From: Escherichia coli phage NG_S8
Sequence record: LC788711.1
DNA length: 64,000 nucleotides
Direction: 5' to 3' (one strand)
A program made the position numbers and the translations under genes. Under the pieces are notes generated by a model. The model was not told the origin of the DNA. It ran no database searches and saw only the letters and a program-made list of their open reading frames with translations. Positions 18,963-29,167 of this stretch are shown here, in pieces (position 1 is the stretch's first letter; each line of letters begins with the position of its first letter).

Positions 18963-19035
18963 TAGTTAGTAGTGGATTTGAACCACTGTAGTCACTCCGT
19001 ATGAAGGAGGTGCATAACCGCTCTGCCAACTAACT
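18963..19035 (-). tRNA. tRNA with CAT anticodon (Met/fMet or Ile-lysidine)
   Basis: T-arm agtgg-atttgaa-ccact; acceptor agttagt/actaact; loop TTCATAC. Confidence 0.65.
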
Positions 19036-19041
19036 ATAATT

Positions 19042-19117
19042 TGGTACTCCGACTTGGGATCGAACCAAGATTTGACGATTATCGGTCGCCTGTTCTAACC
19101 GTTTGAACTATCGGAGC
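19042..19117 (-). tRNA. tRNA-Ile (GAT)
   Basis: CCA encoded; T-arm cttgg-gatcgaa-ccaag; loop CCGATAA. Confidence 0.65.
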
Positions 19118-19118
19118 A

Positions 19119-19412
19119 TTACATCATTTCGTCTAAGTAAGAGGTATACTGGTATTTAGCTTCTCCAGTTTTATCTACTTCGACTTCTGTTCTAGGTACT
19201 TTTCGTACCAGACCATGAATCATCTTATAGTTAATAGACTTAGATGGTTCGTGATCTTTTGGAAATACTTGTTTAACCGTTACTACTTTGAAGCCTTCAC
19301 GAGGTGTTAGCACAACAACTTGATCACCTTCTTTTATTTTCCAAGACTCAGGAAATTCGTAAGTGTAGCGTTGACCACCCGTTTGGAACACGACAGAAAG
19401 ATAACGTTTCAT
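19119..19412 (-). CDS. hypothetical protein (97 aa)
   Basis: ORF track; promoter upstream. Confidence 0.5.
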   Translation of the reverse strand: MKRYLSVVFQTGGQRYTYEFPESWKIKEGDQVVVLTPREGFKVVTVKQVFPKDHEPSKSINYKMIHGLVRKVPRTEVEVDKTGEAKYQYTSYLDEMM

Positions 19413-19442
19413 TTGGTTTCCCTCTCATTAATTTATATAAAT

Positions 19443-19471
19443 ATTATAACAAGAAATAAGAGAGAAGGCAA
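19443..19471 (-). promoter_or_regulatory. T5-type early promoter
   Basis: attata 19443-19448, aggcaa 19466-19471. Confidence 0.55.
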
Positions 19472-19486
19472 ATGAATTTTTAAATT

Positions 19487-19561
19487 TGGTGCTCCCACCA
19501 GGAATCGAACCCGGTTCAGATGCTTACAAGGCAACTGCATCGCCAGCAATGCTTTAGGAGC
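19487..19561 (-). tRNA. tRNA-Thr (TGT), tentative
   Basis: CCA encoded; T-arm and acceptor pair; loop CTTGTAA; one anticodon-stem mismatch. Confidence 0.55.
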
Positions 19562-19728
19562 AATAAACCCGTTATTTCAACGGAATTTCTTTTTCAAATA
19601 CAGGAGACTTATCAGACATTACTGTCATAGCCAACTGTTGTAAGAATTCGAAGGAGAGTTTTAAACGTTCTTCACCCAACTCAACCTCAACGCACTACAT
19701 TTGTTTATCTACCTTTAGCTTTAGATTA

Positions 19729-19950
19729 TCAGCCATCTTCGGGTTCTCTTTGCTCAGCTATTGCTAGCCAGTCTGGTAAAAGAAACTTAGTACGAAATTC
19801 CTCATATGTTTCTTCTGGATGAAAACTATAGCCTTGCTTTTCATCATTTAATAAAACCGAACCATCTTCTTGCTCATAAGCTCGATATGTTTCACCAATA
19901 ATTAAAACTCGTCTATTAGGGTTTTTATTACGAAACTCAAAAACGTGCAT
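19729..19950 (-). CDS. hypothetical protein (73 aa)
   Basis: ORF track. Confidence 0.4.
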   Translation of the reverse strand: MHVFEFRNKNPNRRVLIIGETYRAYEQEDGSVLLNDEKQGYSFHPEETYEEFRTKFLLPDWLAIAEQREPEDG

Positions 19951-19966
19951 AACGTTTCCTTATATT

Positions 19967-20041
19967 TGGTGCGGGATACGAGAGTCGAACTCGTGTCTAC
20001 TGGTTGGAAGCCAGTTATTCTAGCCACTGAACTAATCACGC
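19967..20041 (-). tRNA. tRNA-Gly (TCC)
   Basis: CCA encoded; T-arm acgag-agtcgaa-ctcgt; loop CTTCCAA. Confidence 0.65.
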
Positions 20042-20047
20042 ATAAAT

Positions 20048-20123
20048 TGGCTGGAGAAGGAGGAATCGAACCTACCATTAACGGAGTCAAAGGCCGTTGT
20101 GCTAACCGTTACACTACTCTCCA
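20048..20123 (-). tRNA. tRNA-Gln (TTG)
   Basis: CCA encoded; loop CTTTGAC. Confidence 0.65.
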
Positions 20124-20129
20124 AGTATT

Positions 20130-20205
20130 TGGCTGGGATGCCACGGATTGAACGTGGAACCTTCGGAGTCAGAGGCCGACGATCTGCCAATTGATCTACA
20201 TCCCA
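20130..20205 (-). tRNA. tRNA-Gln (CTG)
   Basis: CCA encoded; perfect acceptor tgggatg/catccca; loop CTCTGAC. Confidence 0.7.
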
Positions 20206-20212
20206 ATAATTT

Positions 20213-20413
20213 TTATTCTACAGGAACCGTGGCAATTGGATCTGGTTCTTCTAGACGTTTACCATTATGATCAACACGAATAATACCACAACCTTCACAG
20301 ATTACAACAGCACCATAGCCTTCTTTAACTTCGGCTTCTGTAATCAGACCAGAAAGATCACCAGTATCTTTGCCCCACATATCGATAGAGCATTCTTTGC
20401 AGAAATCAGCCAT
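20213..20413 (-). CDS. small Cys-containing protein (66 aa)
   Basis: CKEC...CEGC motif. Confidence 0.4.
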   Translation of the reverse strand: MADFCKECSIDMWGKDTGDLSGLITEAEVKEGYGAVVICEGCGIIRVDHNGKRLEEPDPIATVPVE

Positions 20414-20437
20414 ATTTTAGTTCCTATATAAGTTAAT

Positions 20438-20512
20438 TGGTGCATCCTCAGGGAATCGAACCCCGATCGTAAAGTTCGTAGCTTTACATTCTTTCCATTG
20501 AAATAAGGACGC
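20438..20512 (-). tRNA. tRNA-Arg (ACG)
   Basis: anticodon arm GTAAAG-CTACGAA-CTTTAC. Confidence 0.65.
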
Positions 20513-20518
20513 AATATT

Positions 20519-20595
20519 TGGGGTGGCTAGTGGAATTCGAATCCACATAGGCCTGATTCACAATCAGGATCATTAACCAATTATGATATAGCCAC
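20519..20595 (-). tRNA. tRNA-His (GTG)
   Basis: perfect acceptor gtggcta/tagccac; loop TTGTGAA. Confidence 0.7.
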
Positions 20596-20807
20596 AATTG
20601 AAAACTCGCAGGGTTAGCGAAACCATCCTCAAATAGCATTTTCTAGAATACTAATCAAGTTATCTTCTATTGCACGAAGCTCAAGACGAGTACGAATTTT
20701 CAATTGTGGCGGCTCTCCGAAACTCATCACACTAACAACTAGTTGATTACACCTGGATTCTCGCCCAGGAAATTCTCTAGAAAGGTGCACCGTTACTCTT
20801 TGAGCCA

Positions 20808-20890
20808 TTGAATATCAAGAAGCAGAAGGACTTGAACCTTCACGAGATAGACCATTTATCTCAGCCTCGTTTTCGGGTATCTTATGAGGA
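20808..20890 (-). ncRNA. tRNA-like element (T-arm only, no acceptor partner found)
   Basis: hairpin gaagg-acttgaa-ccttc at 20815-20831; boundaries approximate. Confidence 0.3.
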
Positions 20891-20961
20891 GTGGATGTTC
20901 CCCTTACGCCCTTTAGGAAGCCCCGTCTACCGATTCCGGCATACTTCAAGAATACTAGTTG

Positions 20962-21297
20962 CTAAACATCTTTAGGTTTCCAAAGTCTAGCAAATTTTAA
21001 AACATTTGGCATATCAACAGAACTCATAGGCATAACTACTAAACAGCTAGGTTCTGCATTACAGATAGTGCGCTCAAAACCTACGTAACACTCTAGGGTA
21101 GATATGATCTTTTTAAATTCTTTTTTATTAACCCTAAGAATTACTTTCTTAAAAGAATTATCAAGCCAATCCCCATACCTAGGGTCATCCTGAAACTTAA
21201 TATGAGCGTTTAAAACAGAGTGAGCAACTAGAGTTGGTACCATATAATCGGGTGCTTCATCTAGTACTGCAATATACATTTTAATATAACTACTCAT
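20962..21297 (-). CDS. hypothetical protein (111 aa)
   Basis: ORF track. Confidence 0.45.
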   Translation of the reverse strand: MSSYIKMYIAVLDEAPDYMVPTLVAHSVLNAHIKFQDDPRYGDWLDNSFKKVILRVNKKEFKKIISTLECYVGFERTICNAEPSCLVVMPMSSVDMPNVLKFARLWKPKDV

Positions 21298-21313
21298 ATT
21301 TTTCCTTATTAGT

Positions 21314-21403
21314 TGGAGGAAGGTAATGGAGTCGAACCATCACCATATCGCTACAGCGGGCAGGTTTTCAAGACCTGTTACATACCACTATGTCCTACCT
21401 TCC
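21314..21403 (-). tRNA. tRNA-Ser (TGA), type II
   Basis: long variable arm; anticodon arm CAGGT-CTTGAAA-ACCTG; acceptor ggaaggt/accttcc. Confidence 0.65.
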
Positions 21404-21410
21404 AGTTGTT

Positions 21411-21502
21411 TGGCGGAAGAAGAGAGATTCGAACTCTCAAGCCTGCTTTAACAAGTCAGCCACTTTCCAAGCGGTTTTCGTCACCTATCGATTTGCTCTT
21501 CC
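21411..21502 (-). ncRNA. type II tRNA-like element, cloverleaf not resolved
   Basis: CCA, T-arm gagag-attcgaa-ctctc and acceptor pair present; no D-stem or anticodon stem could be placed. Confidence 0.4.
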
Positions 21503-21666
21503 GTAGATCTCAGGATTAAATCATAAACTTCATTAGCGGATACTGGAAGTATGAGATTATACATCTTTTGGTCATACCTCTGACCATACTCTATAAACAC
21601 ATACTCTTTAGTTAATGTATTAACAGCTAACCAGATATCAGTTATAGGAGTTTTCATCATGAGTTA

Positions 21667-21747
21667 ATCCAATGTTTGGTAGGGATGGAGGGACTCGAAC
21701 CCACACCCGAAGACTAGAACCTAAATCTAGCGCGTCTGCCAATTTCG
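21667..21747 (-). tRNA. tRNA-Leu (TAG)
   Basis: D-arm GCG-loop-CGC; anticodon arm CTAGA-TTTAGGT-TCTAG. Confidence 0.6.
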
Positions 21748-21764
21748 CCACATCCCCATTTTAT

Positions 21765-21983
21765 TTAGTTAGAAATAAATAATAATCCCGCAACAATGGA
21801 ACCTACGCCACTGAATACCATTATCAGCATAGCTTCTAAGCTGATAAAGCGGACAGTATATGGAGCGCCCCAAGAATAATCAGTAAAGAAAGTTTTCTTT
21901 TCTTTAGCTAAATCTTTAACAGTTCTAAAATAGATAGCTAGTGCTAAAGCTGCAAGAACTACAGAGGCTGCTAAGAATACCAT
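21765..21983 (-). CDS. small membrane protein (72 aa)
   Basis: two hydrophobic helices. Confidence 0.4.
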   Translation of the reverse strand: MVFLAASVVLAALALAIYFRTVKDLAKEKKTFFTDYSWGAPYTVRFISLEAMLIMVFSGVGSIVAGLLFISN

Positions 21984-22002
21984 ATTATTTCCTTAATTTG
22001 TT

Positions 22003-22078
22003 TGGTGGAGTCACTCAGAATTGAACTGAGTTCCACTGCTTGCAAGGCAGTAAGTTTAACCAAATAACCTATGACCCC
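22003..22078 (-). tRNA. tRNA-Ala (TGC)
   Basis: G3-U70 pair; anticodon arm ACTGC-CTTGCAA-GCAGT. Confidence 0.7.
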
Positions 22079-22083
22079 GAATT

Positions 22084-22162
22084 TGGTGGAGAATAAGAGA
22101 TTCGAACTCTTCTGATATCCTCGGTGCAAGCGAGGTGTCCACTCCAAGCAGACCCATTCCCC
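22084..22162 (-). tRNA. divergent tRNA-Ala-like (TGC)
   Basis: G3-U70 pair; anticodon arm CCTCG-CTTGCAC-CGAGG; G at position 8 and 7-nt variable loop. Confidence 0.5.
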
Positions 22163-22171
22163 AAAATTTAT

Positions 22172-22435
22172 TTATTCTCTATACATATCGAGAACAGTTG
22201 CTACAATCTGAGCTTCTAGCCTAGCAATATCTTTATTCACTATATCAGATTCTACTACTAAGTGATTATATATTGCTTCAGTTTTAGCAAGATCTACGTC
22301 AGATAGCTTATTAAGACTATTATAATACTTAGCATTATTGCAACGTTTCTTCATATCGGAAACTCGTTTATGAAGTGTTCTTTGTTGATAACGTTGCGAC
22401 ATTAGTTTCTTAGCCATATCTTTCAGATCAAACAT
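22172..22435 (-). CDS. hypothetical coiled-coil protein (87 aa)
   Basis: ORF track. Confidence 0.4.
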   Translation of the reverse strand: MFDLKDMAKKLMSQRYQQRTLHKRVSDMKKRCNNAKYYNSLNKLSDVDLAKTEAIYNHLVVESDIVNKDIARLEAQIVATVLDMYRE

Positions 22436-22700
22436 AGATATTCCTTCTAGTTTACTAAGGCTATTAGCTCGGTGTGCGTATTACCCTCAGACATTAGCCA
22501 GTAGAGGATAACCGCTCTTCACAAACCCGATACACTATTCAGTTGCCGCTGAATCTAGTGGACTAATCTAGAACTTCTTGCAAAGTATCCCCCGCCATTA
22601 GGGGTCTAATTGCAGTTGTGCTTTTTGGCAGCCAGTCCTAGGTCGAGCTAATACCTTAGTGAACTTTGATGAGGATTTCTCCTCATCAATTTATATAAAT

Positions 22701-22729
22701 ATTATAACAAGAAATTAAGCATCAAGCAA
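22701..22729 (-). promoter_or_regulatory. T5-type early promoter with hairpin-sequestered RBS-like leader
   Basis: attata 22701-22706, aagcaa 22724-22729; leader forms 8-bp hairpin gatgagga/tcctcatc. Confidence 0.55.
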
Positions 22730-23081
22730 GTACATTTTTAGCGATTTCTTGTAGTTCCTTAACGTCGCTAACGAAAAGGTAATCAGAGCTTCCAGAGTGC
22801 ATACTCTGCATAACCACACCATCCTCTGGTGCATCTTCCTTCAAAGTAAGTCCTAACCAGAACTCGGCAAAACTAGGTGTTACCTCACCTTGACTTGCCT
22901 TGAACACATCGCCTTCTGTGATCTCTTGACCAGTGGAGAGTCCCATGTACGGTACGTTCAGATCAATATCTTTGTAGAACTCAGCTAGATCTTGCTCGAA
23001 ATCCCAACCTTTAGAGATAGCGAACTCCACTGTTACATGACCGAAATAGCCTTGAACCTTGCTTGATAATTGCATTTGCAA
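22722..23081 (-). CDS. hypothetical acidic protein (119 aa)
   Basis: ORF track. Confidence 0.5.
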   Translation of the reverse strand: MQMQLSSKVQGYFGHVTVEFAISKGWDFEQDLAEFYKDIDLNVPYMGLSTGQEITEGDVFKASQGEVTPSFAEFWLGLTLKEDAPEDGVVMQSMHSGSSDYLFVSDVKELQEIAKNVLA

Positions 23082-23100
23082 TTCCTTATTTTGAGTTAAT

Positions 23101-23174
23101 TGGTACTCGGTGATAGAATCGAACTATCGCAACCGTCGTGTAAAGACGGGGTTCTCCCATTAAACTAACCGAGC
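23101..23174 (-). tRNA. tRNA-Val (TAC)
   Basis: CCA encoded; anticodon arm CCGTC-TTTACAC-GACGG. Confidence 0.65.
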
Positions 23175-23308
23175 AAAAGACGTCCTATAATATAGGCTTC
23201 AACTACAAATTCACAGAAACCTGCTAAAAACATACCTATTGTAAAATCGGCAGAGAATACATAGGAATCTTTTATTTTCTGCTTCATTAAGTAAAACCAG
23301 ATAGTCAT
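23165..23308 (-). CDS. small hydrophobic peptide (47 aa), below track threshold
   Basis: ATG overlaps upstream stop; GGAGAG RBS; 3-prime end overlaps tRNA-Val. Confidence 0.35.
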   Translation of the reverse strand: MTIWFYLMKQKIKDSYVFSADFTIGMFLAGFCEFVVEAYIIGRLLLG

Positions 23309-23642: not shown

Positions 23643-23721
23643 TGGTAGACCGCCTGGGACTCGAACCCAGAACCTTCCGGTTAAAAGCCGGGTGCTGCTA
23701 AACCAATTGAGCTAGCGATCT
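23643..23721 (-). tRNA. tRNA-Lys (TTT), divergent D-arm
   Basis: CCA encoded; anticodon loop CTTTTAA; D-stem poorly paired. Confidence 0.6.
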
Positions 23722-23909: not shown

Positions 23910-23987
23910 TGGAAGCGGGTGTAGGAATCGAACCTACCTCTTTCTAGCTTATGAGACTAGCGATCTCTACCAGAGATCTAACCCGCA
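23910..23987 (-). tRNA. tRNA with CAT anticodon (Met type; U1-U72 unpaired)
   Basis: anticodon arm CTAGT-CTCATAA-GCTAG; position 1-72 mismatch. Confidence 0.6.
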
Positions 23988-23993: not shown

Positions 23994-24071
23994 TGGTCTC
24001 CGTGGGAGGATTTGAACCCCCGACCCTACCGCCCCAAACGGAACGCTCTGGCCAAACTGAGCTACACGGAG
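23994..24071 (-). tRNA. tRNA-Pro (TGG)
   Basis: perfect acceptor ctccgtg/cacggag; loop TTTGGGG. Confidence 0.65.
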
Positions 24072-24103: not shown

Positions 24104-24132
24104 ATTATACAGAGAATTAAGTGAAATAGCAA
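24104..24132 (-). promoter_or_regulatory. T5-type early promoter driving a tRNA operon
   Basis: attata 24104-24109, tagcaa 24127-24132; no ORF follows, tRNA-Pro starts about 30 nt downstream. Confidence 0.55.
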
Positions 24133-24382
24133 ATGAGTTTTTAATAAATTTACTTATTGTGTAGGCCACCTCACGCTTCAAACGCTCTGCTGACAAAGAA
24201 GTTTGCGAGACTTCTCTTAAATGCCAGAATAGATCCGCCGATCTATCGGAACCTACTCAATAAGTAAACTTTCGTTTACCTACACCTACCTGGTCGGGAG
24301 GATTTTCAGCGACTAGAACCGGCCGGAAACTCATCGCCTTGTTTATCTAGGATCCGTTCTCTAGGAAGCAGAAACCTAAATT

Positions 24383-24456
24383 TGGTGCGGTCGGAGGGAA
24401 TCGAACCCTCAACTTCTGGTTGGCAACCAAAAATTATACCTTTTAACTACGAACGC
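24383..24456 (-). tRNA. tRNA-Gly (GCC)
   Basis: CCA encoded; anticodon arm TTTGG-TTGCCAA-CCAGA. Confidence 0.6.
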
Positions 24457-24465
24457 ATAATAAGT

Positions 24466-24587
24466 CAATCTAGGCAGGACTTGAACCTGCTATCACTTGT
24501 GCGGATTTACGAGAACCATTCTTTCACTCGAATCGAACGAGCTTCTACCCTCGGCAAGCTGGTGTCCCCTCTCCACCACGCTAGAAT
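24466..24587 (-). ncRNA. atypical 122-nt tRNA-like element with two T-arm hairpins
   Basis: T-arms at 24474-24490 and 24526-24542; outer acceptor aatctag/ctagaat pairs 6 of 7. Confidence 0.4.
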
Positions 24588-24654
24588 GTTTGATAAAGAG
24601 TCCGGTGTAGCAATCCGTAAGGGTGCACCTACTGTAGCCTTTACTCTTTAAATT

Positions 24655-24730
24655 TGGTACACCCACTAGGACTTGAACCTAGAACCCTCCGCTTAAGAGG
24701 CGGTAGCTCTAACCATTGAGCTATGGATGT
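24655..24730 (-). tRNA. tRNA-Lys (CTT)
   Basis: D-arm GCTC/GAGC; anticodon loop CTCTTAA. Confidence 0.65.
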
Positions 24731-24736: not shown

Positions 24737-24813
24737 TGGCGCGACCGATGGGATTCGAACCCACATTCTCTCCCGTGACAGGGAAGTACCATTACCAAGC
24801 CAGCCCCGATCGC
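24737..24813 (-). tRNA. tRNA-Asp (GTC)
   Basis: anticodon arm CTTCC-CTGTCAC-GGGAG. Confidence 0.6.
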
Positions 24814-24822: not shown

Positions 24823-25008
24823 TTACTCAGCTTTGAGTTTTTCGATAGCTTCCTCAACCTCTTTTAGAGCTTCACGACGTGCATTCTGTTGCTGCATATC
24901 TTGAATTAATGTCAGTTTTTGGTTTTCAATTTCTTGATCCCAAACCTTAATATTATTAATCAGACTATCACGATCAGCTTCTAGTCGAGCAATTGCACGA
25001 GTTGTCAT
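24823..25008 (-). CDS. small coiled-coil protein (61 aa)
   Basis: ORF track. Confidence 0.4.
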   Translation of the reverse strand: MTTRAIARLEADRDSLINNIKVWDQEIENQKLTLIQDMQQQNARREALKEVEEAIEKLKAE

Positions 25009-25111
25009 ATCTATTTCCTCAGTTGTTAATGAAAAATGGTATCTGTGACTGAATTCAATATCAGTAATGATAGCTGGTTGGCTACCGGTTTACTTAACTC
25101 TACACAGAATA

Positions 25112-25194
25112 TGGCGGGCCGTGTAGGATTCGAACCTACGTTGTCTTTCGACATGGATTAACAGTCCACCGCCAAACCGCTTGGCTAACGACCC
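25112..25194 (-). tRNA. type II tRNA with GTT (Asn) anticodon and G73
   Basis: Ser-like D-arm GCC-AAGCGGTTT-GGC, variable hairpin GTCGAAAGAC, anticodon arm GTGGA-CTGTTAA-TCCAT. Confidence 0.55.
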
Positions 25195-25201
25195 TAAAAT
25201 T

Positions 25202-25277
25202 TGGACGACCGCATGAGATTCGAACTCACATAAGGAGGTTTTGCAGGCCTCCGCCTAAGCCATTCAGCCAACGGTCG
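25202..25277 (-). tRNA. tRNA-Cys (GCA)
   Basis: anticodon loop CTGCAAA. Confidence 0.6.
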
Positions 25278-25455
25278 ATTTATCTTGCTTTTCGAGATTA
25301 GTAAACTCTAGATCTTTAGAATGTCCTATAGATCTAGCATAATAGCCATCTCCAGCATCATAGCCTGACTTACCACACTCACACATCTTAAACTCTCTAT
25401 AACGAGTGAAAATATGTTCAGAACCACAACACTTAAATTTAACTAACATTTTCAT
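25264..25455 (-). CDS. small zinc-ribbon-like protein (63 aa)
   Basis: CCGSEH...CECGKSG motif. Confidence 0.4.
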   Translation of the reverse strand: MKMLVKFKCCGSEHIFTRYREFKMCECGKSGYDAGDGYYARSIGHSKDLEFTNLEKQDKSTVG

Positions 25456-25694
25456 TTAACACGCTCCGGTAAATCTTCGAGTTTATATTGAGTAGCCACA
25501 TTAGCAGCATCTAGTAACAAACCCATATGTTTAAGAATTCTAGTGATAGCCTCGCCTTCTGCTTCTTCTACAAAGCAACGTAGTTGCATGAAGTCAATAC
25601 CACCATCCATACCAGAGAAAATGTTAAGTAAGCGAAGCATTACCAGCTTACGTTCTTTCAATTCTTGTTCTGTCATGTTGCTTCTCCAGTTCAA
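25452..25694 (-). CDS. hypothetical protein (80 aa)
   Basis: ORF track. Confidence 0.45.
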   Translation of the reverse strand: MNWRSNMTEQELKERKLVMLRLLNIFSGMDGGIDFMQLRCFVEEAEGEAITRILKHMGLLLDAANVATQYKLEDLPERVK

Positions 25695-25705
25695 TTTATG
25701 TAATA

Positions 25706-25734
25706 ATTATACAGAACTTTAAGCGGTTAAGCAA
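25706..25734 (-). promoter_or_regulatory. T5-type early promoter
   Basis: attata 25706-25711, aagcaa 25729-25734. Confidence 0.6.
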
Positions 25735-25999
25735 CTACATTTTTCAGAAATATGATGCCTTTCTTTTTCTTCTTATACTTCCACGTTAACGGATTCTGTC
25801 GATTATGAACGCTTGAGATCTTTGTCTCGTCAAAGTTCTTCAATACCATGTAATCACAAGCCAACTGCTCTAGTGGAATGGTTTCTCCGTCAAAAGCATA
25901 AACATAAGGCTGTTGACTGGCACGATAATGATAGACTTTGTTAATTCTGCGTTTTAATGACTTATCCGCACAATAAATAAAGAAGTTTTCAGGATGCAT
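25727..25999 (-). CDS. hypothetical protein (about 90 aa; ATG 25999 preferred)
   Basis: AAGGAG RBS 6 nt upstream of ATG at 25997-25999; track ORF uses TTG at 26014. Confidence 0.45.
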   Translation of the reverse strand: MHPENFFIYCADKSLKRRINKVYHYRASQQPYVYAFDGETIPLEQLACDYMVLKNFDETKISSVHNRQNPLTWKYKKKKKGIIFLKNVVA

Positions 26000-26016
26000 C
26001 AGCATCTCCTTCAAAT

Positions 26017-26091
26017 TGGTGCACCCCGTTGGTAACGATCCAACCTCTCAAGCTCTTCAGGCAAGCGCTAATCCATCTCAGCTAAAGGTGC
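26017..26091 (-). tRNA. divergent tRNA, possibly Phe (GAA)
   Basis: CCA, acceptor and D-arm pair; T-loop ATCGTTA atypical; loop CTGAAGA with weak stem. Confidence 0.4.
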
Positions 26092-26097
26092 AAATAT

Positions 26098-26176
26098 TGG
26101 CAAACCTACTAGGACTCGAACCTAGACCGTACGGTTTTGGAGACCGACATGCTGTCCAGTAACACTCTAGGAATGC
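26098..26176 (-). tRNA. tRNA-Trp (CCA) candidate with weak acceptor stem
   Basis: CCA encoded; T-arm ctagg-actcgaa-cctag; anticodon arm TCGGT-CTCCAAA-ACCGT. Confidence 0.45.
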
Positions 26177-26182
26177 AGAAAT

Positions 26183-26259
26183 TGGCGTCCTGTGCGGGGA
26201 TCGAACCCGCAAATCCTACCTTGAAAGGGTAGTGACTTTACCAGTTTGTCTAACAGGAC
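26183..26259 (-). tRNA. tRNA-Glu (TTC)
   Basis: perfect acceptor gtcctgt/acaggac; anticodon arm CTACC-CTTTCAA-GGTAG. Confidence 0.7.
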
Positions 26260-26266
26260 TTAAATT

Positions 26267-26357
26267 TGGTGTTGGATGATGGAGTCGAACCACCCGAGAC
26301 CCTTCCGAGTCGGCAGATTTACAGTCTGCTTCGCTACCTCTACGATACTAATCCAAC
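26267..26357 (-). tRNA. tRNA-Tyr (GTA), type II
   Basis: anticodon arm GCAGA-CTGTAAA-TCTGC; long variable arm; perfect acceptor. Confidence 0.7.
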
Positions 26358-26482
26358 ATATTTGAATGAAAAGTAAGTCGGTTAAACTCAAGGTGGAATA
26401 TTTCAGGATTTCCTGACTTTACCCCTAAAAGCAACTCGCTTAGTTACTTCTCATTCAGATATGTTTTCCAAATTAGATAACT

Positions 26483-26511
26483 ATTATATCAAGTTTTGAA
26501 GGACTGAGCAA
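26483..26511 (-). promoter_or_regulatory. T5-type early promoter driving a tRNA operon
   Basis: attata 26483-26488, gagcaa 26506-26511. Confidence 0.55.
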
Positions 26512-26547
26512 GTCAAATTTTAAAGAACTTGCTCAGTGCTATATCAG

Positions 26548-26823
26548 TTACTCGAAGCTAGGAGTGACACTCAGTTTGAATGGAAGCTCGAACACTTCTT
26601 CATAATCATCATTGAGCGTAATTACACGACCTTCTAGCTTAGTCATGGTGATTTCGATATCAGCCTTTGCATCAGGAGCCATACCAGCTTCCACACATTT
26701 AGCTTTGACTTCCGGCAGAAGTTCTACATCGTAGAAATAAAGCCATTCAATCTCACCTTCCCAGCCACCCCAGGATTTACAAACAGCACTTTCAACACCA
26801 GTTGCAGTAACACGTTTTGACAT
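26548..26823 (-). CDS. hypothetical protein (91 aa)
   Basis: ORF track. Confidence 0.45.
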   Translation of the reverse strand: MSKRVTATGVESAVCKSWGGWEGEIEWLYFYDVELLPEVKAKCVEAGMAPDAKADIEITMTKLEGRVITLNDDYEEVFELPFKLSVTPSFE

Positions 26824-26853
26824 TCGTTAACTCCTTCATCAATTTATATAACT

Positions 26854-26884
26854 ATTATAGCAGAAATCTTAAGTAAAAAGCAAG
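26854..26884 (-). promoter_or_regulatory. T5-type early promoter (18-bp spacer)
   Basis: attata 26854-26859, aagcaa 26879-26884. Confidence 0.55.
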
Positions 26885-26913
26885 TACATTTTTAAAATTT
26901 CTGCTTGGAGGAG

Positions 26914-27120
26914 TTAAACTCCTGATTCTTCAGCCAGATCAAGCCCAACCAACGTGATTGCCATAATAGCCGCGCCATGTTCTTTCTCTCCTAGCTCTTT
27001 GGCTTGAGTGAGAATATTGAGGAATTGCTTTTGAAAATCTGCAACTTCTTCTGTCAAGCCTGCTTCAGCAATAATTCCTTTCAGCATAAAGCGTTGTGCC
27101 GTAATTTCAGGATTAGCCAT
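26914..27120 (-). CDS. hypothetical protein (68 aa)
   Basis: ORF track. Confidence 0.4.
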   Translation of the reverse strand: MANPEITAQRFMLKGIIAEAGLTEEVADFQKQFLNILTQAKELGEKEHGAAIMAITLVGLDLAEESGV

Positions 27121-27133
27121 TTATTATCTCCAG

Positions 27134-27256
27134 TTATTTAGAGTGTAAACCAAACTTAGGATCATAGCGATCGTAAGTCGTACCATTAGTTGAAGCCTTG
27201 ATGCTATGAAAACGACAGTACATAAATTTACGCAGTGCTTTCTTAATAGCTTTCAT
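27134..27256 (-). CDS. small basic protein (40 aa), below track threshold
   Basis: ATG with AAGGA RBS 7 nt upstream. Confidence 0.3.
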   Translation of the reverse strand: MKAIKKALRKFMYCRFHSIKASTNGTTYDRYDPKFGLHSK

Positions 27257-27271
27257 TTTATTTCCTTAATT

Positions 27272-27349
27272 TGGTAGGGGTGGTGGGATTCGAACCCACA
27301 AAACCTGAATTTTAAGTCCAGTACCTATGCCAATTCGATTACACCCCCA
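27272..27349 (-). tRNA. tRNA, anticodon read as TAA (Leu), class I-like
   Basis: CCA encoded; T-arm gtggg-attcgaa-cccac; loop CTTAAAA; D-arm unclear. Confidence 0.45.
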
Positions 27350-27356
27350 TGTAATC

Positions 27357-27710
27357 TTAGCGAATCTCTAAACCCTGGAAATATCGAGGGAATGGAGAGC
27401 CAACTTCAAAATTGATGCCCCAATTAAGTTCAACGAGTTCAGATTTATTAAGATCTAGGCCATTACCTTCAAAGATATAGCCGTAAACCGCAGGGAACAT
27501 AGCTGCTAGATCTTCCATATCGGAATGAGCATTGTGTTCTTCACGGAACTGCTCAAACTCTTCAAAGAACTTTTCTAGGAAGAACTCAGGTACGATAAAA
27601 GTTACCACATCAGTAGAATCATCGGTACGATACACCGTAGCTTGGAACAAGCCAACACCTAAAAGGTTTATTGCCGGAGTAGTAAAAATATCCATCTTAG
27701 CCTCTCTCAA
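27357..27710 (-). CDS. hypothetical acidic protein (117 aa)
   Basis: ORF track. Confidence 0.45.
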   Translation of the reverse strand: MREAKMDIFTTPAINLLGVGLFQATVYRTDDSTDVVTFIVPEFFLEKFFEEFEQFREEHNAHSDMEDLAAMFPAVYGYIFEGNGLDLNKSELVELNWGINFEVGSPFPRYFQGLEIR

Positions 27711-27882
27711 TGTCTAGACAAATTGCATATTCAGGGTTGATACCAGTACCTTTACATGTAGGACATTCCCATTCTCTACAGAAAATATCCCCAGGCTCTG
27801 CATCATCCTGCCTACCACCACCATGACAGTCCTTACACCGACATTCTTCTAATGCTTTCTTCATTTCATAGAATCTGGACAT
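27697..27882 (-). CDS. small zinc-finger-like protein (61 aa)
   Basis: CRCKDCHGGG...CPTCKG motifs. Confidence 0.4.
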   Translation of the reverse strand: MSRFYEMKKALEECRCKDCHGGGRQDDAEPGDIFCREWECPTCKGTGINPEYAICLDIERG

Positions 27883-27898
27883 ATAGTCTCCTAGTTAA

Positions 27899-27976
27899 TT
27901 GGTGGCTCCCGGAGGATTCGAACCTACCTACCTTTCGCTTATGAGGCGACGGCTCATACCAAATGAGCTTGAGAAC
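27899..27976 (-). tRNA. tRNA with CAT anticodon (Met/Ile2 type)
   Basis: D-arm GCTC/GAGC; anticodon loop CTCATAA. Confidence 0.6.
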
Positions 27977-27981
27977 CAAAT

Positions 27982-28075
27982 TTGGAGGAAGATGCCAGAC
28001 TCGAACTGGCACACCATGTCTCCACAGCTACTGGCTGTTTAGCAAACAGCTCCCTTACCTTTAGGGTTAATCTTC
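27982..28075 (-). tRNA. tRNA-Ser (GCT), type II
   Basis: perfect acceptor ggaagat/atcttcc; anticodon arm GCTGT-TTGCTAA-ACAGC. Confidence 0.7.
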
Positions 28076-28089
28076 CAAATTTATGAATA

Positions 28090-28118
28090 TATTATACAGA
28101 AAATTTCGGCATTAAGCA
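28090..28118 (-). promoter_or_regulatory. T5-type early promoter driving a tRNA operon
   Basis: attata 28090-28095, aagcaa 28113-28118. Confidence 0.6.
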
Positions 28119-28127
28119 AGTGAAATT

Positions 28128-28424
28128 TTACTGAACATTGCACTGATATACCTGTTTGATACGTGTCACTGACTTCTTAGTTGGGTTGATAGAAGAACCC
28201 TGCCACCAACGTGACTCTGAGCTAAGAACAGCACCAGGAACAGCCTGCTCTTTTGGCAGAACAATATCAAAACACTGTTCACCCATATTATCTTTAATGT
28301 GTGACCAAATATCCAAAGTAAATCGTTCTAACTTATTACAAACCTGAACTTGACAAAGTTCCTGTTGCGGAGCAGCAAATACAGAAGTAGATACTAGAGT
28401 CAATGCAAATACAATGCGTTTCAT
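28128..28424 (-). CDS. secreted hypothetical protein (98 aa; start at signal-peptide Met)
   Basis: GAGAGAGGAA RBS; N-terminus MKRIVFALTLVSTSVFA. Confidence 0.45.
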   Translation of the reverse strand: MKRIVFALTLVSTSVFAAPQQELCQVQVCNKLERFTLDIWSHIKDNMGEQCFDIVLPKEQAVPGAVLSSESRWWQGSSINPTKKSVTRIKQVYQCNVQ

Positions 28425-28454
28425 GTTTGATTCCTCTCTCGAATTTATAAATAT

Positions 28455-28483
28455 ATTATACAGAGAATTTAGCATTCAAGCAA
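28455..28483 (-). promoter_or_regulatory. T5-type early promoter
   Basis: attata 28455-28460, aagcaa 28478-28483. Confidence 0.6.
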
Positions 28484-28626
28484 TTGAATTTTTAAACTTT
28501 TTAGTGGAAAATCGCAGGGCACTTAAGGGTAGCACGTTGTTGCTGCAATAATAGTATATGATTCTAAAGAATTAAATACTAAAGACCTTAGTTGAATAAC
28601 TTATGGGCTTTTCTTTTGCCTTAAAT

Positions 28627-28662
28627 ACAGAAAAGCCCGCGCTCTCGGGGGAAACGCGGGCT
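28627..28662 (-). terminator. intrinsic terminator
   Basis: 8-bp GC stem agcccgcg/cgcgggct with U-tract on minus strand. Confidence 0.6.
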
Positions 28663-28686
28663 TGTTTCGAAGATTACGTGTAACTA

Positions 28687-28854
28687 TTACTTATTACGCA
28701 TATCCATGATCATTTGACCATCGTAGCCAGTACCGACAACAGTCTGTGGTACACCACCTTGGTATTTTTCAGCACGAAGCATTTCAACTTCCAGCTGCTT
28801 CCAACGAATTACTTTTTGATCGGAAGTCAGTTCTTTAGTGTTTTTAGTAAACAT
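28687..28854 (-). CDS. small hypothetical protein (55 aa), below track threshold
   Basis: ATG with AAGGAA RBS. Confidence 0.35.
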   Translation of the reverse strand: MFTKNTKELTSDQKVIRWKQLEVEMLRAEKYQGGVPQTVVGTGYDGQMIMDMRNK

Positions 28855-28865
28855 ATATTTCCTTA

Positions 28866-29066
28866 TTATTTAGAAGAGTTAGCTACTACAGTTACTTTAG
28901 TTGCAGAAATAAACAGGCTAGCATCCACAGCAAATTCAGGAGCTTTGATATCTCCGTTATGAAATATGACTATACCGGAGACTACTTCAAATGCTAGTGC
29001 TGTAACATCGGTGGTATTTACTTGTGAATGTTCACCTACTACTTTTACTATATATCGTGTTTTCAC
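28866..29066 (-). CDS. hypothetical protein (66 aa)
   Basis: ORF track. Confidence 0.4.
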   Translation of the reverse strand: MKTRYIVKVVGEHSQVNTTDVTALAFEVVSGIVIFHNGDIKAPEFAVDASLFISATKVTVVANSSK

Positions 29067-29092
29067 TTTATTTTCCTAGCAGTTAATAAAAT

Positions 29093-29167
29093 TGGCCGAG
29101 GTGACAGGATTCGAACCTGCATAAAGGAATTTAGAAGACTCCTGCCTATCCCTTAGACTACACCCCG
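29093..29167 (-). tRNA. tRNA-Arg (TCT)
   Basis: CCA encoded; anticodon arm GGAGT-CTTCTAA-ATTCC; acceptor pairs with one G-U. Confidence 0.7.

What the first reader, a model, noticed from the sequence alone, without database searches (positions are those of the whole stretch)
18963..29167. Large promoter-driven tRNA arsenal including a structurally divergent tRNA-Lys(UUU)
About 30 tRNA genes sit in a 10 kb block in at least four operons with their own promoters (24104, 26483, 28090, 30282). Three carry CAT anticodons, two are Ala(TGC) with G3-U70, and Lys occurs as CTT and as a TTT copy with a degenerate D-arm (23643-23721). Phage tRNA sets are known to compensate for, or resist, host anticodon nucleases, and a T5 tRNA-Lys has been reported to neutralise the PARIS system; the divergent Lys copy fits that role, but this is inference.
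Basis: partly seen in the sequence, partly recalled or inferred. Interest (0 to 1): 0.5.

Follow-up and report, generated by a model that had tools for sequence, protein, structure and literature searches.

The report
T5-like phage tRNA gene cluster
This is the well-known tRNA-rich early region of a T5-like Salmonella phage: 30 promoter-driven tRNA genes, several identical or nearly identical to phage tRNAs already shown to defeat bacterial tRNA-cutting defences. It is real and functional, but largely ordinary for this phage family.

Summary
The window is an Epseptimavirus (T5-like), 99.8% identical to Salmonella phage 3-29 over this block. It carries 30 tRNA genes at 18962-29167, all on the minus strand, covering all 20 amino acids.

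The "degenerate D-arm" of tRNA-Lys(UUU) is a single extra nucleotide in the 3' strand of the D stem. Many T5-like phages share it, and strong covariation supports the cloverleaf, so this is not a pseudogene. The gene sits where T5's PARIS-neutralising tRNA-Lys sits. It differs from the host at both anticodon-stem positions that AriB needs (C39 and G41 instead of U39 and A41). It is 72/79 identical to SP15 tRNA-Lys, which rescues phages from PrrC170. The window's tRNA-Tyr, Thr and Asn are 100% identical to SP15's, and SP15 tRNA-Tyr is the published anti-Retron-Eco7 tRNA.

Novelty is low. Side finding: an uncharacterised ~1.1 kb structured leader ("RNAX") lies upstream of tRNA-Arg.

The parts
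18962..19035 (-). tRNA-Met(CAU), elongator type. It is the only gene without an encoded CCA (it reads ...ACTA).
   Evidence: ARAGORN; Rfam 50.9 bits; 95% identical to the T5 tRNA-Met next to Ile1; 3' end read.
19042..19117 (-). tRNA-Ile(GAU)
   Evidence: 58.9 bits.
19487..19561 (-). tRNA-Thr(UGU). The anticodon stem-loop reads UAAGCA where the host has UAAUCA.
   Evidence: 100% identical to SP15 tRNA-Thr.
19967..20041 (-). tRNA-Gly(UCC)
   Evidence: 65.5 bits.
20048..20123 (-). tRNA-Gln(UUG)
20130..20205 (-). tRNA-Gln(CUG)
20438..20512 (-). tRNA-Arg(ACG)
20519..20595 (-). tRNA-His(GUG)
   Evidence: 100% identical to T5 tRNA-His.
21314..21403 (-). tRNA-Ser(UGA)
   Evidence: 29.1 bits; 89% identical to T5.
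21411..21502 (-). tRNA-Ser(GGA)
   Evidence: ARAGORN; only a weak Rfam tRNA-Sec hit of 26.5 bits; 72% identical to the tRNA-Ser that T5 annotates as tRNAS2.
21677..21757 (-). tRNA-Leu(UAG)
22003..22078 (-). tRNA-Ala(UGC) copy 1, with G3-U70
22084..22162 (-). tRNA-Ala(UGC) copy 2, with G3-U70, G8 in place of U8 and a 7-nt variable loop
   Evidence: ARAGORN; Rfam 38.1 bits with lax filters; annotated as tRNA-Ala in chee24, faergetype and beppo.
23101..23174 (-). tRNA-Val(UAC)
   Evidence: 95% identical to T5.
23643..23721 (-). tRNA-Lys(UUU), 79 nt. It has one extra C in the 3' strand of the D stem, a 10-nt D loop, a C27-A43 mismatch, an anticodon stem CCCGG/CCGGA (C39, C40, G41), discriminator A73 and an encoded CCA.
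   Evidence: (54.3 bits); family covariation; 72/79 identical to SP15, 57/79 to T5 and 51/79 to E. coli.
23910..23987 (-). Initiator-like tRNA(CAU), with a U1-U72 mismatch and A11-U24
   Evidence: 99% identical to the T5 gene annotated tRNAfM.
23994..24071 (-). tRNA-Pro(UGG)
24383..24456 (-). tRNA-Gly(GCC)
24655..24730 (-). tRNA-Lys(CUU), an isoacceptor with no E. coli counterpart
   Evidence: 64.8 bits. All five lys genes in the E. coli lysT cluster are UUU. Also present in faergetype.
24737..24813 (-). tRNA-Asp(GUC)
25112..25194 (-). tRNA-Asn(GUU), 83 nt, with a 13-nt variable arm (GUC-GAAA-GAC mini-hairpin). The anticodon stem-loop is host-like (UAAUCC).
   Evidence: 100% identical to SP15 tRNA-Asn.
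25202..25277 (-). tRNA-Cys(GCA)
26017..26091 (-). tRNA-Phe(GAA), missed by ARAGORN. It has two U-U pairs in the anticodon stem and an unusual T loop, AUCGUUA.
   Evidence: Rfam 33.4 bits; annotated in 3-29; sequence comparison with T5, SP15 and chee24.
26098..26174 (-). tRNA-Trp(CCA)
26183..26259 (-). tRNA-Glu(UUC)
26267..26357 (-). tRNA-Tyr(GUA), 91 nt, with a lengthened variable arm
   Evidence: 100% identical to SP15 tRNA-Tyr, the published anti-Retron-Eco7 tRNA (PMC11555353, PMC12673091).
27272..27348 (-). tRNA-Leu(UAA)
27900..27977 (-). tRNA(CAU), probably Ile2 (the lysidine-modified type)
   Evidence: 86% identical to the T5 gene annotated tRNAI2. The identity assignment rests on T5's annotation only.
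27983..28076 (-). tRNA-Ser(GCU)
29093..29167 (-). tRNA-Arg(UCU)
   Evidence: 99% identical to T5.
30282..30310 (-). T5-type early promoter (TTGCTA-17-TATAAT) driving the RNAX leader and tRNA-Arg. Homologue of T5 P16-17.
   Evidence: 91% identical to T5 P16-17.
28455..28483 (-). T5-type promoter, homologue of T5 P15a
   Evidence: 97% identical to P15a.
28091..28119 (-). T5-type promoter directly upstream of Ser(GCU) and Ile2(CAU).
   Evidence: Exact motif match; sequence read; partial matches to P15c and P15a.
26828..26902 (-). Homologue of the T5 promoter annotated P15c
   Evidence: blastn, 90.7% over 75 nt; not picked up by the strict motif.
26483..26511 (-). T5-type promoter with an extended -10 (TGATATAAT) upstream of Tyr-Glu-Trp-Phe. 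Homologue of T5 P14a.
   Evidence: 92% identical to P14a. The SP15 tRNA-Tyr promoter is reported as exceptionally strong (PMC11555353).
25706..25734 (-). T5-type promoter, homologue of T5 P14b
   Evidence: 84%.
24104..24132 (-). T5-type promoter upstream of Pro-fMet-ORF-Lys(UUU). Homologue of T5 P13a.
   Evidence: 87.5%.
22701..22729 (-). T5-type promoter, homologue of T5 P13b
   Evidence: 90.5%.
19443..19471 (-). T5-type promoter (one mismatch, TG-extended -10) upstream of an ORF, Ile(GAU) and Met
29168..30275 (-). ~1.1 kb non-coding, structured leader between the promoter and tRNA-Arg(UCU). Homologue of the T5 misc_RNA 'RNAX'. It contains a tRNA-like module at 29689-29763.
   Evidence: No minus-strand ORF longer than 39 aa. 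T5 annotation. 528 phage records match. Modular alignment. Covariation. No Rfam family.
24464..24588 (-). Homologue of the T5 small RNA 'rna2'
   Evidence: blastn, 89.6%.
24158..24256 (-). Homologue of T5 'RNAIV'
   Evidence: blastn, 89%.
25037..25109 (-). Homologue of T5 'rna3', directly downstream of tRNA-Asn
   Evidence: blastn, 94.5%.
22519..22653 (-). Homologue of T5 'RNA2H'
   Evidence: blastn, 79%.
20597..20702 (-). Homologue of T5 'RNAIII', directly upstream of tRNA-His
   Evidence: blastn, 96%.
20807..20950 (-). Homologue of T5 'rna1'
   Evidence: blastn, 82%.
28633..28663 (-). Terminator-like hairpin (12-bp stem followed by a T run) closing the RNAX-Arg transcription unit

Best explanation
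What it is. The block is the tRNA-rich early region of a T5-like Salmonella phage of the genus Epseptimavirus. Thirty tRNA genes are interleaved with small ORFs and small stable RNAs. At least nine strong T5-type sigma-70 promoters transcribe them on the minus strand.

How it works. The tRNAs are presumably cut out of polycistronic transcripts by host RNase P and other processing enzymes; this step is inferred. The set supplies every amino acid plus an initiator-like tRNA. It is close to a minimal complete decoding set, and every member compared is only 59-80% identical to its E. coli counterpart.

What it does. It has two compatible effects.
1. It keeps phage translation supplied and matched to the phage's A/U-rich codon usage.
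2. It provides replacement tRNAs that tRNA-cutting defence nucleases do not recognise, so abortive infection through tRNA depletion fails.

The second effect is shown experimentally for identical or near-identical tRNAs of relatives. SP15 tRNA-Tyr acts against Retron-Eco7 PtuAB. SP15 tRNA-Lys acts against PrrC170. T5 tRNA-Lys, Thr and Asn act against PARIS AriB.

The Lys(UUU) gene. At 23643-23721 lies the positional counterpart of T5's PARIS-neutralising tRNA. It is a functional tRNA. The odd D-arm is a conserved one-nucleotide insertion (bulge or mismatch). The anticodon stem has lost both bases that AriB requires, so it most likely escapes AriB and restores AAA/AAG decoding. This last step is inferred.
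For: Identity of the region.
- 99.8% identity to Salmonella phage 3-29 over 10.4 kb, and 632 phage records match.
- Synteny with the T5 and SP15 tRNA regions, including the order Pro-fMet-ORF-Lys-Val.
- 30 tRNA genes.

Promoters.
- The motif occurs 32 times against 3.1 expected.
- It aligns with promoters annotated in T5.

The Lys(UUU) tRNA is functional.
- In 13 Lys(UUU) sequences, 96.3% of cells pair and 17 of 21 pairs show compensatory change; 0 of 500 shuffles reach this.
- The D stem modelled with a bulge is 98% paired.
- The gene has an encoded CCA, discriminator A73 and a UUU anticodon.

Nuclease determinants.
- The host site is U36-A-A-U39-C40|A41; T5 reads UAAACC and the window reads UAACCG.
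- U39A abolishes AriB cleavage and A41C reduces it (PMC12409363).
- The window's Thr(UGU) has G39.

Links to tested tRNAs.
- Tyr, Thr and Asn are 100% identical to SP15's.
- Lys is 72/79 identical to SP15's.
- SP15 tRNA-Tyr is not cleaved by Retron-Eco7 and needs its longer variable loop (PMC12673091).
- SP15 tRNA-Lys rescues phages from PrrC170 (PMC11555353).

Codon side.
- CGG, the one codon without a phage decoder, occurs at 0.4 per 1000 codons.
- AAG makes up 41% of Lys codons, which fits an added Lys(CUU).
Against: - Nothing was tested on this exact Lys sequence.
- C39 is not the substitution that was assayed, which was U39A.
- U16, a D-loop contact whose change to C impairs AriB cleavage, is retained here (PMC12409363).
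- Restoring the host cleavage site in T5 tRNA-Lys did not restore cleavage, so determinants outside the anticodon stem exist and are unknown (PMC12409363).
- The window's tRNA-Asn has the host-like AriB site, and its tRNA-Tyr has an anticodon stem-loop identical to the host's. Any escape for these must rest on other features or on abundance.
- Bas34 carries its own Lys(UUU) and is still PARIS-sensitive, so carrying such a gene is not sufficient (PMC12409363).
- The Lys anticodon loop CUUUUAA is identical to the host's, so sequence alone does not predict evasion of loop-cutting nucleases such as PrrC.
- RorSlfn5 cleaves T5-encoded tRNAs as well as host tRNAs (PMC13056530).
Confidence: 0.75

Rival explanations
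1. Codon compensation or translational autonomy is the sole function. On this view the tRNAs exist to match the phage's A/U-rich codon usage and to make translation independent of the host tRNA pool, and any nuclease evasion is incidental.
For: - The set is a near-minimal complete decoder. It has U34 tRNAs for all four-codon boxes, plus Arg(UCU), Ile2(CAU), Leu(UAA), Leu(UAG) and Gly(UCC) for codons that are rare in E. coli.
- In 46 phage ORFs the usage per 1000 codons is CTA 14.1, AGA 6.8, ATA 6.5 and GGA 13.1. These are higher than the E. coli values I recall from codon tables, which I did not compute here.
- CGG, which no phage tRNA decodes, occurs at only 0.4 per 1000.
- AAG makes up 41% of Lys codons, and a dedicated Lys(CUU) is present.
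Against: - Identical or near-identical tRNAs in SP15 and T5 are necessary and sufficient to overcome specific defences (PMC11464382, PMC11555353, PMC12409363).
- E. coli tRNA-Tyr driven from its own promoter, or E. coli tRNA-Lys, rescued poorly compared with the phage versions (PMC11555353).
- Every tRNA compared is only 59-80% identical to its host counterpart, including those for abundant host tRNAs such as Lys(UUU). Supply alone does not require that much divergence.
Confidence: 0.2
2. Replenishment after host shut-off. T5-like phages degrade host DNA and stop host transcription early in infection. On this view the phage tRNAs simply replace a decaying host tRNA pool during a long infection.
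For: - The genes lie in the early region behind many strong early promoters.
- The set is complete, covering 20 amino acids plus an initiator-like tRNA.
- Counteracting depletion of host tRNA during infection is cited as a role of phage tRNAs in PMC11555353.
Against: - T5 mutants lacking 16 of their 23 tRNAs (T5Mos) remain viable on defence-free hosts and become sensitive specifically to PARIS (PMC11464382).
- tRNAs are long-lived compared with the infection cycle. This is established knowledge and was not tested here.
Confidence: 0.25
3. The Lys(UUU) gene is a decaying pseudogene or an uncharged decoy. On this view the D-arm defect prevents normal folding or charging, and at most the RNA soaks up nucleases.
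For: - The D stem has a C13-C22 mismatch or a bulge, and pair 27-43 is a mismatch.
- Belukhina et al. raise the possibility that over-expressed viral tRNAs act as competitive inhibitors of AriB (PMC12409363).
Against: - The same insertion is conserved across Epseptimavirus, Tequintavirus and a Vibrio phage.
- Compensatory changes occur in all four stems; 17 of 21 pairs covary and 0 of 500 shuffles reach the observed score.
- The Rfam tRNA score is 54.3 bits.
- The CCA end, A73 and the UUU anticodon are intact.
- SP15 tRNA-Lys has the same architecture, is 72/79 identical, and restores phage growth under PrrC170, where a supply of decodable Lys-tRNA is what is limiting (PMC11555353).
Confidence: 0.04

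Closest known systems
Bacteriophage T5 tRNA-Lys(UUU), the PARIS (AriB) suppressor (Burman et al. 2024, PMC11464382; Belukhina et al. 2025, PMC12409363)
   Same: - Same genomic position: promoter P13a, then Pro, fMet, a small ORF and Lys.
- Same anticodon loop, CUUUUAA.
- Same expanded 10-nt D loop, a 27-43 mismatch, A73 and an encoded CCA.
- Both differ from the host at positions 39 and 41 of the anticodon stem.
   Different: - Only 57/79 identical.
- The window has C39/G41 where T5 has A39/C41.
- The window keeps U16 where T5 has C16.
- The window has an extra C in the D stem that T5 lacks.
- AriB resistance is shown for T5 only.
Phage SP15 tRNA-Tyr and tRNA-Lys from the tRNA-rich region, which act against Retron-Eco7 PtuAB and PrrC170 (Azam et al. 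2024, PMC11555353; PMC12673091)
   Same: - tRNA-Tyr, tRNA-Thr and tRNA-Asn are 100% identical.
- tRNA-Lys is 72/79 identical and has the same bulged D stem.
- The promoter homologue lies upstream of Tyr.
   Different: - The window's Lys has G31-C39 and C27-A43 where SP15 has A31-U39 and U27-A43.
- The window has about 7 more tRNA genes than ARAGORN finds in SP15 (30 against 23). The extras are Lys(CUU), Gly(GCC), Gly(UCC), Arg(ACG), Ser(GGA), a second Ala and a third CAU tRNA.
- The window lacks SP15's anti-retron ORF75.
Salmonella phage 3-29 (NC_048145) and other Epseptimavirus genomes
   Same: - 99.8% DNA identity over the block, with the same tRNA set.
   Different: - The window lacks the PnuC/NadR module that 3-29 has between Ser(GCU) and Arg(UCU).
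- RefSeq annotates only 24 of the tRNAs.
Mycobacteriophage tRNAs with anticodon-loop mutations proposed to evade anticodon nucleases (van den Berg et al. 2023, PMC10264068)
   Same: - The same idea: phage tRNAs are nuclease-insensitive substitutes.
   Different: - Here the anticodon loops of Lys, Thr, Asn and Tyr are identical to the host's. The differences lie in the anticodon stem, the D arm and the variable arm.

Membership tests
tRNA-rich region of T5-like phages (Demerecviridae, Markadamsvirinae) | DNA homology and gene order shared with the T5, SP15 and 3-29 tRNA regions | tested here: met
   99.8% identity to 3-29, and 119 records cover at least 80% of the query. The order Pro-fMet-ORF-Lys-Val and the other gene runs match T5 and SP15.
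tRNA-rich region of T5-like phages (Demerecviridae, Markadamsvirinae) | More than 20 tRNA genes on one strand, interleaved with small ORFs | tested here: met
   30 tRNA genes, all on the minus strand. The small ORFs between them have no Pfam domains.
tRNA-rich region of T5-like phages (Demerecviridae, Markadamsvirinae) | T5-type early promoters in front of the tRNA groups | tested here: met
   TTGCT-N18-TATAAT occurs 32 times against 3.1 expected. The sites are 84-97% identical to T5 P13a, P13b, P14a, P14b, P15a, P15c and P16-17. Promoter activity was not measured.
tRNA-rich region of T5-like phages (Demerecviridae, Markadamsvirinae) | Homologues of the T5 small stable RNAs and RNAX | tested here: met
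   rna1, rna2, rna3, RNAIII, RNAIV, RNA2H and pieces of RNAX are found at 79-96% identity. RNAI was not found.
Functional elongator tRNA (Rfam RF00005), applied to Lys(UUU) at 23643-23721 | Cloverleaf supported by covariation | tested here: met
   54.3 bits. 96.3% of cells pair, 17 of 21 pairs are compensatory, and 0 of 500 shuffles reach this. Slid controls pair at 47.6% or less.
Functional elongator tRNA (Rfam RF00005), applied to Lys(UUU) at 23643-23721 | Canonical 4-bp D stem | tested here: not met
   There is one extra nucleotide. Rfam models it as a C13-C22 mismatch. A bulge model gives 98% pairing across the family. The deviation is conserved in at least 6 other phages.
Functional elongator tRNA (Rfam RF00005), applied to Lys(UUU) at 23643-23721 | Lysine identity elements (U35 within anticodon UUU, discriminator A73) and aminoacylation | tested here: inconclusive
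   UUU, A73 and an encoded CCA are present. That these are the LysRS identity elements is established knowledge. Charging cannot be tested here.
AriB (PARIS)-resistant phage tRNA-Lys(UUU), T5 type | Loss of U39 (Mut1; U39A abolishes cleavage) | tested here: met
   The window has C39, paired with G31. The assayed change was U39A, so the effect of C39 is inferred (PMC12409363).
AriB (PARIS)-resistant phage tRNA-Lys(UUU), T5 type | Loss of A41 at the cleavage site C40|A41 (Mut2) | tested here: met
   The window has G41. The assayed change was A41C (PMC12409363).
AriB (PARIS)-resistant phage tRNA-Lys(UUU), T5 type | U16 changed to C in the D loop (Mut3) | tested here: not met
   The window's D loop is AAUUGGUUUA, so U16 is retained. 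T5 has AACUGG.
AriB (PARIS)-resistant phage tRNA-Lys(UUU), T5 type | Not cleaved by activated AriB, and rescues a Lys-deleted phage on PARIS+ cells | not testable with these tools
   This needs an in vitro cleavage assay or a plaque assay.
Anti-Retron-Eco7 phage tRNA-Tyr, SP15 type | Sequence identity with SP-tRNA-Tyr, including its variable loop, which is longer than the host's | tested here: met
   91/91 nt identical to SP15. E. coli tyrU is 85 nt. The longer variable loop is required for inhibition (PMC12673091).
Anti-Retron-Eco7 phage tRNA-Tyr, SP15 type | A strong dedicated promoter | tested here: inconclusive
   The P14a homologue with an extended -10 lies 125 nt upstream. Its strength was not measured here.

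The most novel reading that the evidence does not exclude
The structural oddities scattered through this tRNA set are not drift. They include the D-stem insertion and enlarged D loop of Lys(UUU), the hairpin variable arm of Asn, the lengthened variable arm of Tyr and the altered T loop of Phe. On the novel reading they are body-level escape adaptations, each blocking docking of a different tRNA nuclease while leaving the anticodon loop host-like. Part of the same counter-defence module would be the ~1.1 kb structured RNAX leader with its embedded CCA-less tRNA-like element. It could act as an RNase P-punctuated processing scaffold or as a decoy for tRNA-binding nucleases.
Probability: 0.15. 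Interest if true: 0.6.

Novelty: new member of a known kind. Interest (0 to 1): 0.3.

Why it matters
The block adds a natural variant series to a system that is already tractable. T5-like phages carry at least four anticodon-stem versions of tRNA-Lys(UUU): UAAACC, UAACCG, UAAUCG and UAAGCA. They occur with or without a D-stem insertion. Belukhina et al. showed that AriB reads determinants outside the anticodon stem that are still unknown, and these variants are ready-made probes for finding them. The block also shows that a Salmonella phage carries the exact anti-retron tRNA-Tyr characterised in an E. coli O157 phage, so these counter-defence tRNAs move across host genera. Beyond that, the finding confirms existing knowledge rather than extending it.

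Tried and rejected
- Generic sigma-70 scan. It found 28 sites against 33 expected, so it could not discriminate. I replaced it with the T5-specific motif and with blastn of promoters annotated in T5.
- Loose viral-contig pattern for tRNA-Lys T-arm plus anticodon. It returned 120 mostly unrelated phage tRNAs and said little about the T5 lineage. A D-arm-anchored pattern and GenBank hits served better.
- Rfam on the RNAX leader and on the small-RNA gaps. No family matched other than tRNA.
- Pfam on ten small ORFs in the block. Only a sub-threshold YqeY hit appeared, on the ORF upstream of the block.
- Minimum free energy z-score of RNAX. The value was -1.57, which is not significant alone, so the case for structure rests on covariation.
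- Search for SP15's anti-retron ORF75 in the window. It is absent; only the first 18 codons are shared.
- Bas33/Bas34 tRNA sequences in the supplement of PMC12409363. No supplement is held. The Sargen and Helaine paper is also not held.
- Hypervariability of anticodon-stem positions 39-41 as a signature of an arms race. I rejected it because the acceptor and T stems of the same tRNAs vary just as much.
- The pseudogene reading of Lys(UUU). I rejected it on covariation and on SP15 function.

Full report
**What the window is.** The 10.4 kb around the finding is 99.8% identical to Salmonella phage 3-29 (Epseptimavirus, Demerecviridae). It matches 632 phage records, nearly all of them T5-like phages of Salmonella, Escherichia and Klebsiella. 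G+C content is about 40%, and the GC skew changes sign near 44 kb. This matches the strand on which promoter motifs lie.

**The observation.** ARAGORN reports 29 tRNA genes between 18962 and 29167, all on the minus strand.
- Rfam confirms 27 of them at its gathering score. It adds tRNA-Phe(GAA) at 26020-26091 (33.4 bits), which RefSeq also annotates in 3-29.
- With laxer filters the second Ala(UGC) scores 38.1 bits.
- Ser(GGA) rests on ARAGORN and on its 72%-identical counterpart annotated in T5.

That makes 30 tRNA genes covering all 20 amino acids. A further Rfam hit at 29692-29763 is a CCA-less tRNA-like element, not a tRNA.

By similarity to T5's annotation the three CAU tRNAs are:
- an elongator Met, 95% identical to T5's;
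- an initiator-like tRNA, 99% identical to T5's tRNAfM, with a U1-U72 mismatch and A11-U24;
- Ile2, 86% identical to T5's tRNAI2.

**Promoters.** A generic sigma-70 scan is not enriched (28 found, 33 expected). That motif occurs 32 times in the window against 3.08 expected, and 0 of 100 shuffles reach 32. blastn of promoters annotated in the T5 GenBank records places seven of them in the block:

| T5 promoter | Window position |
|---|---|
| P13a | 24151-24088 |
| P13b | 22750-22667 |
| P14a | 26533-26458 |
| P14b | 25756-25681 |
| P15c | 26902-26828 |
| P15a | 28503-28429 |
| P16-17 | 30321-30264 |

The block therefore has at least nine promoters.

**The Lys(UUU) gene.** The sequence is:

AGAUCGC UA GCUC AAUUGGUUUA G[C]AGC A CCCGG CUUUUAA CCGGA AGGUU CUGGG UUCGAGU CCCAG GCGGUCU A CCA

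Relative to T5's tRNA-Lys (GCUC...GAGC) it has one extra C in the 3' strand of the D stem. Rfam models this as a C13-C22 mismatch.

The same insertion, as C or U, occurs in SP15, chee24, phiLLS, DaisyDussoix (Bas31), S147, Vibrio phage PG07 and an IMG/VR contig. It is absent from T5, Sugarland and faergetype.

On an alignment of 13 Lys(UUU) sequences:
- the cloverleaf with a bulged D stem pairs in 96.3% of cells;
- 17 of 21 pairs show compensatory change;
- no shuffle out of 500 reaches the observed values;
- slid controls pair at 47.6% or less.

The gene has a UUU anticodon, discriminator A73 and an encoded CCA. It is a constrained, functional tRNA and not a degenerate copy.

**Comparison with known nuclease determinants.** AriB of PARIS cuts E. 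coli tRNA-Lys(UUU) between C40 and A41. U39A abolishes cleavage, and A41C and U16C reduce it. Thr(UGU) and Asn(GUU) are further targets (PMC11464382, PMC12409363). The sequences from U36 to position 41 compare as follows:

| tRNA | E. coli | T5 | Window |
|---|---|---|---|
| Lys(UUU) | UAAUCA | UAAACC | UAACCG |
| Thr(UGU) | UAAUCA | – | UAAGCA |
| Asn(GUU) | UAAUCC | UAAGUU | UAAUCC |

The window's Lys has lost both anticodon-stem determinants but keeps U16. Its Thr has lost U39. Its Asn is host-like at this site, although it carries a 13-nt hairpin variable arm.

Retron-Eco7 PtuAB cuts host tRNA-Tyr in the variable loop, between U47 and C48. SP15 tRNA-Tyr is not cut and needs its longer variable loop to inhibit the system (PMC12673091). 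The window's 91-nt tRNA-Tyr is identical to SP15's, as are its Thr and Asn.

SP15 tRNA-Lys has the same bulged architecture and is 72/79 identical to the window's. It rescued T1 and T7 from PrrC170 (PMC11555353).

In Salmonella, Gifsy-1 HepS cleaves Thr, Ile and Ser anticodon loops (PMC13043305). tRNA-targeting defences are therefore relevant in the natural host.

**Mechanism.** Four things are shown: the genes, the promoters, the structural constraint, and the identity to experimentally characterised anti-defence tRNAs. Three things are inferred: processing from polycistronic transcripts, charging, and resistance of this particular Lys(UUU) to AriB.

Codon usage also fits the tRNA set. In 46 ORFs:
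- CGG, the only codon without a phage decoder, occurs at 0.4 per 1000;
- AAG makes up 41% of Lys codons, alongside a Lys(CUU) that E. coli lacks;
- CTA (14.1), AGA (6.8) and GGA (13.1) are frequent.

Supply and escape are compatible functions. I do not treat them as exclusive.

**Caveats.**
- The D-arm insertion is not what distinguishes T5's proven PARIS-resistant tRNA.
- C39 was not the substitution tested.
- Determinants outside the anticodon stem exist but are unmapped.
- Bas34 carries a Lys(UUU) gene and is still PARIS-sensitive.
- A bacterial Schlafen cleaves T5-encoded tRNAs as well as host tRNAs (PMC13056530).

**Side finding.** Between the promoter at 30310-30282 and tRNA-Arg(UCU) lie about 1.1 kb with no minus-strand ORF longer than 39 aa.
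- The T5 record AY734508 annotates the homologous 719 nt as misc_RNA "RNAX".
- 528 phage records match it, mostly unannotated.
- No Rfam family matches, and no paper in the library uses the name.
- An alignment of nine phages is modular, with conserved blocks separated by insertions and deletions.
- RNAalifold on the 3' domain finds 10 pairs with compensatory change.
- The embedded tRNA-like module at 29689-29763 pairs in 88.5% of cells, with 5 compensatory pairs that no shuffle out of 500 reaches.
- The folding-energy z-score is only -1.57.

The block also holds homologues of T5's small RNAs rna1, rna2, rna3, RNAIII, RNAIV and RNA2H.

**Verdict.** This is a real, functional and well-understood kind of element. 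The specific Lys(UUU) variant is an untested member of a known class.

Noticed in passing
window 29168-30275 (minus strand): A ~1.1 kb non-coding leader lies between a strong T5-type promoter and tRNA-Arg(UCU). It is homologous to the misc_RNA 'RNAX' annotated only in T5 record AY734508. It is conserved in 528 phage records and built of conserved blocks separated by indels, and several hairpins show compensatory changes. No Rfam family matches and no paper in the library names it. Function unknown.
   Followed up: partly
window 29689-29763 (minus strand): A tRNA-like module sits inside RNAX. It has acceptor, D and T arms with a GGUUCGAAUCC T loop, a stub of 3 bp with a 6-nt loop in place of the anticodon arm, and AAGA in place of CCA. 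Some GenBank records call it tRNA-Sec, tRNA-Ser or tRNA-OTHER. Covariation in the acceptor and T stems suggests a conserved structure, possibly an RNase P processing signal.
   Followed up: partly
window 20597-20702, 20807-20950, 22519-22653, 24158-24256, 24464-24588, 25037-25109 (minus strand): ORF-free stretches between tRNAs are 79-96% identical to T5's annotated small stable RNAs (RNAIII, rna1, RNA2H, RNAIV, rna2, rna3). None hits any Rfam family, even at E-values up to 5.
   Followed up: partly
window 26017-26091 (minus strand): tRNA-Phe(GAA) has two U-U pairs in the middle of its anticodon stem, a feature conserved in T5, SP15, chee24 and faergetype. Only the window's sequence, among those five compared, has the T arm GUUGG-AUCGUUA-CCAAC, which lacks the usual T54 and A58. 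This is why ARAGORN misses it.
   Followed up: partly
window 25112-25194 (minus strand): tRNA-Asn(GUU) is 83 nt long and has a 13-nt variable arm forming a GUC-GAAA-GAC mini-hairpin, which is unusual for a class I tRNA. It is identical in SP15 and faergetype. T5 and chee24 have a normal 78-nt version with a different anticodon stem.
   Followed up: partly
window 24655-24730 (minus strand): tRNA-Lys(CUU) is an isoacceptor that E. coli does not have; all lys genes seen there are UUU. It is present in the window, 3-29 and faergetype, and beppo annotates two tRNA-Lys genes. It is absent from T5, SP15 and chee24. The phage uses AAG for 41% of its Lys codons.
   Followed up: partly
window 18955-19037 (minus strand): The elongator tRNA-Met is the only gene in the block without an encoded CCA; it reads A-CUA after the acceptor stem. 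The T5 orthologue encodes CCA.
   Followed up: no
window 28128-28475 (minus strand): A 115-aa ORF behind the P15a-like promoter shares only its first 18 codons with SP15 ORF75, the reported anti-retron protein. The rest is unrelated and begins with a hydrophobic, signal-peptide-like segment. This looks like a cassette swap behind a conserved promoter and 5' end.
   Followed up: partly
window 28076-29093 compared with L001 (phage 3-29) 12100-15100: The window lacks the PnuC transporter and NadR-like nicotinamide-nucleotide adenylyltransferase genes that 3-29 and most relatives carry between tRNA-Ser(GCU) and tRNA-Arg(UCU). Only two short flanking pieces align.
   Followed up: partly
L002 (T5 st0, AY692264) 12558-12632: ARAGORN reads the gene annotated tRNA-Thr in this T5 record with anticodon TAT (Ile). 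The otherwise nearly identical gene in the window, SP15 and chee24 has TGT.
   Followed up: no
L147 (phage IrisVonRoten, Bas32) 661-738: Its tRNA-Lys has the anticodon loop CCUUUAA, with C at the normally invariant U33.
   Followed up: no
whole window: The T5 early-promoter motif TTGCT-N18-TATAAT occurs 32 times, ten-fold over expectation. The hits lie on the minus strand below about 44 kb and on the plus strand above it, apart from two one-mismatch plus-strand hits (9491, 37312) and one one-mismatch minus-strand hit (51228). This tracks the change in GC skew. CGG codons are almost absent, at 0.4 per 1000.
   Followed up: partly
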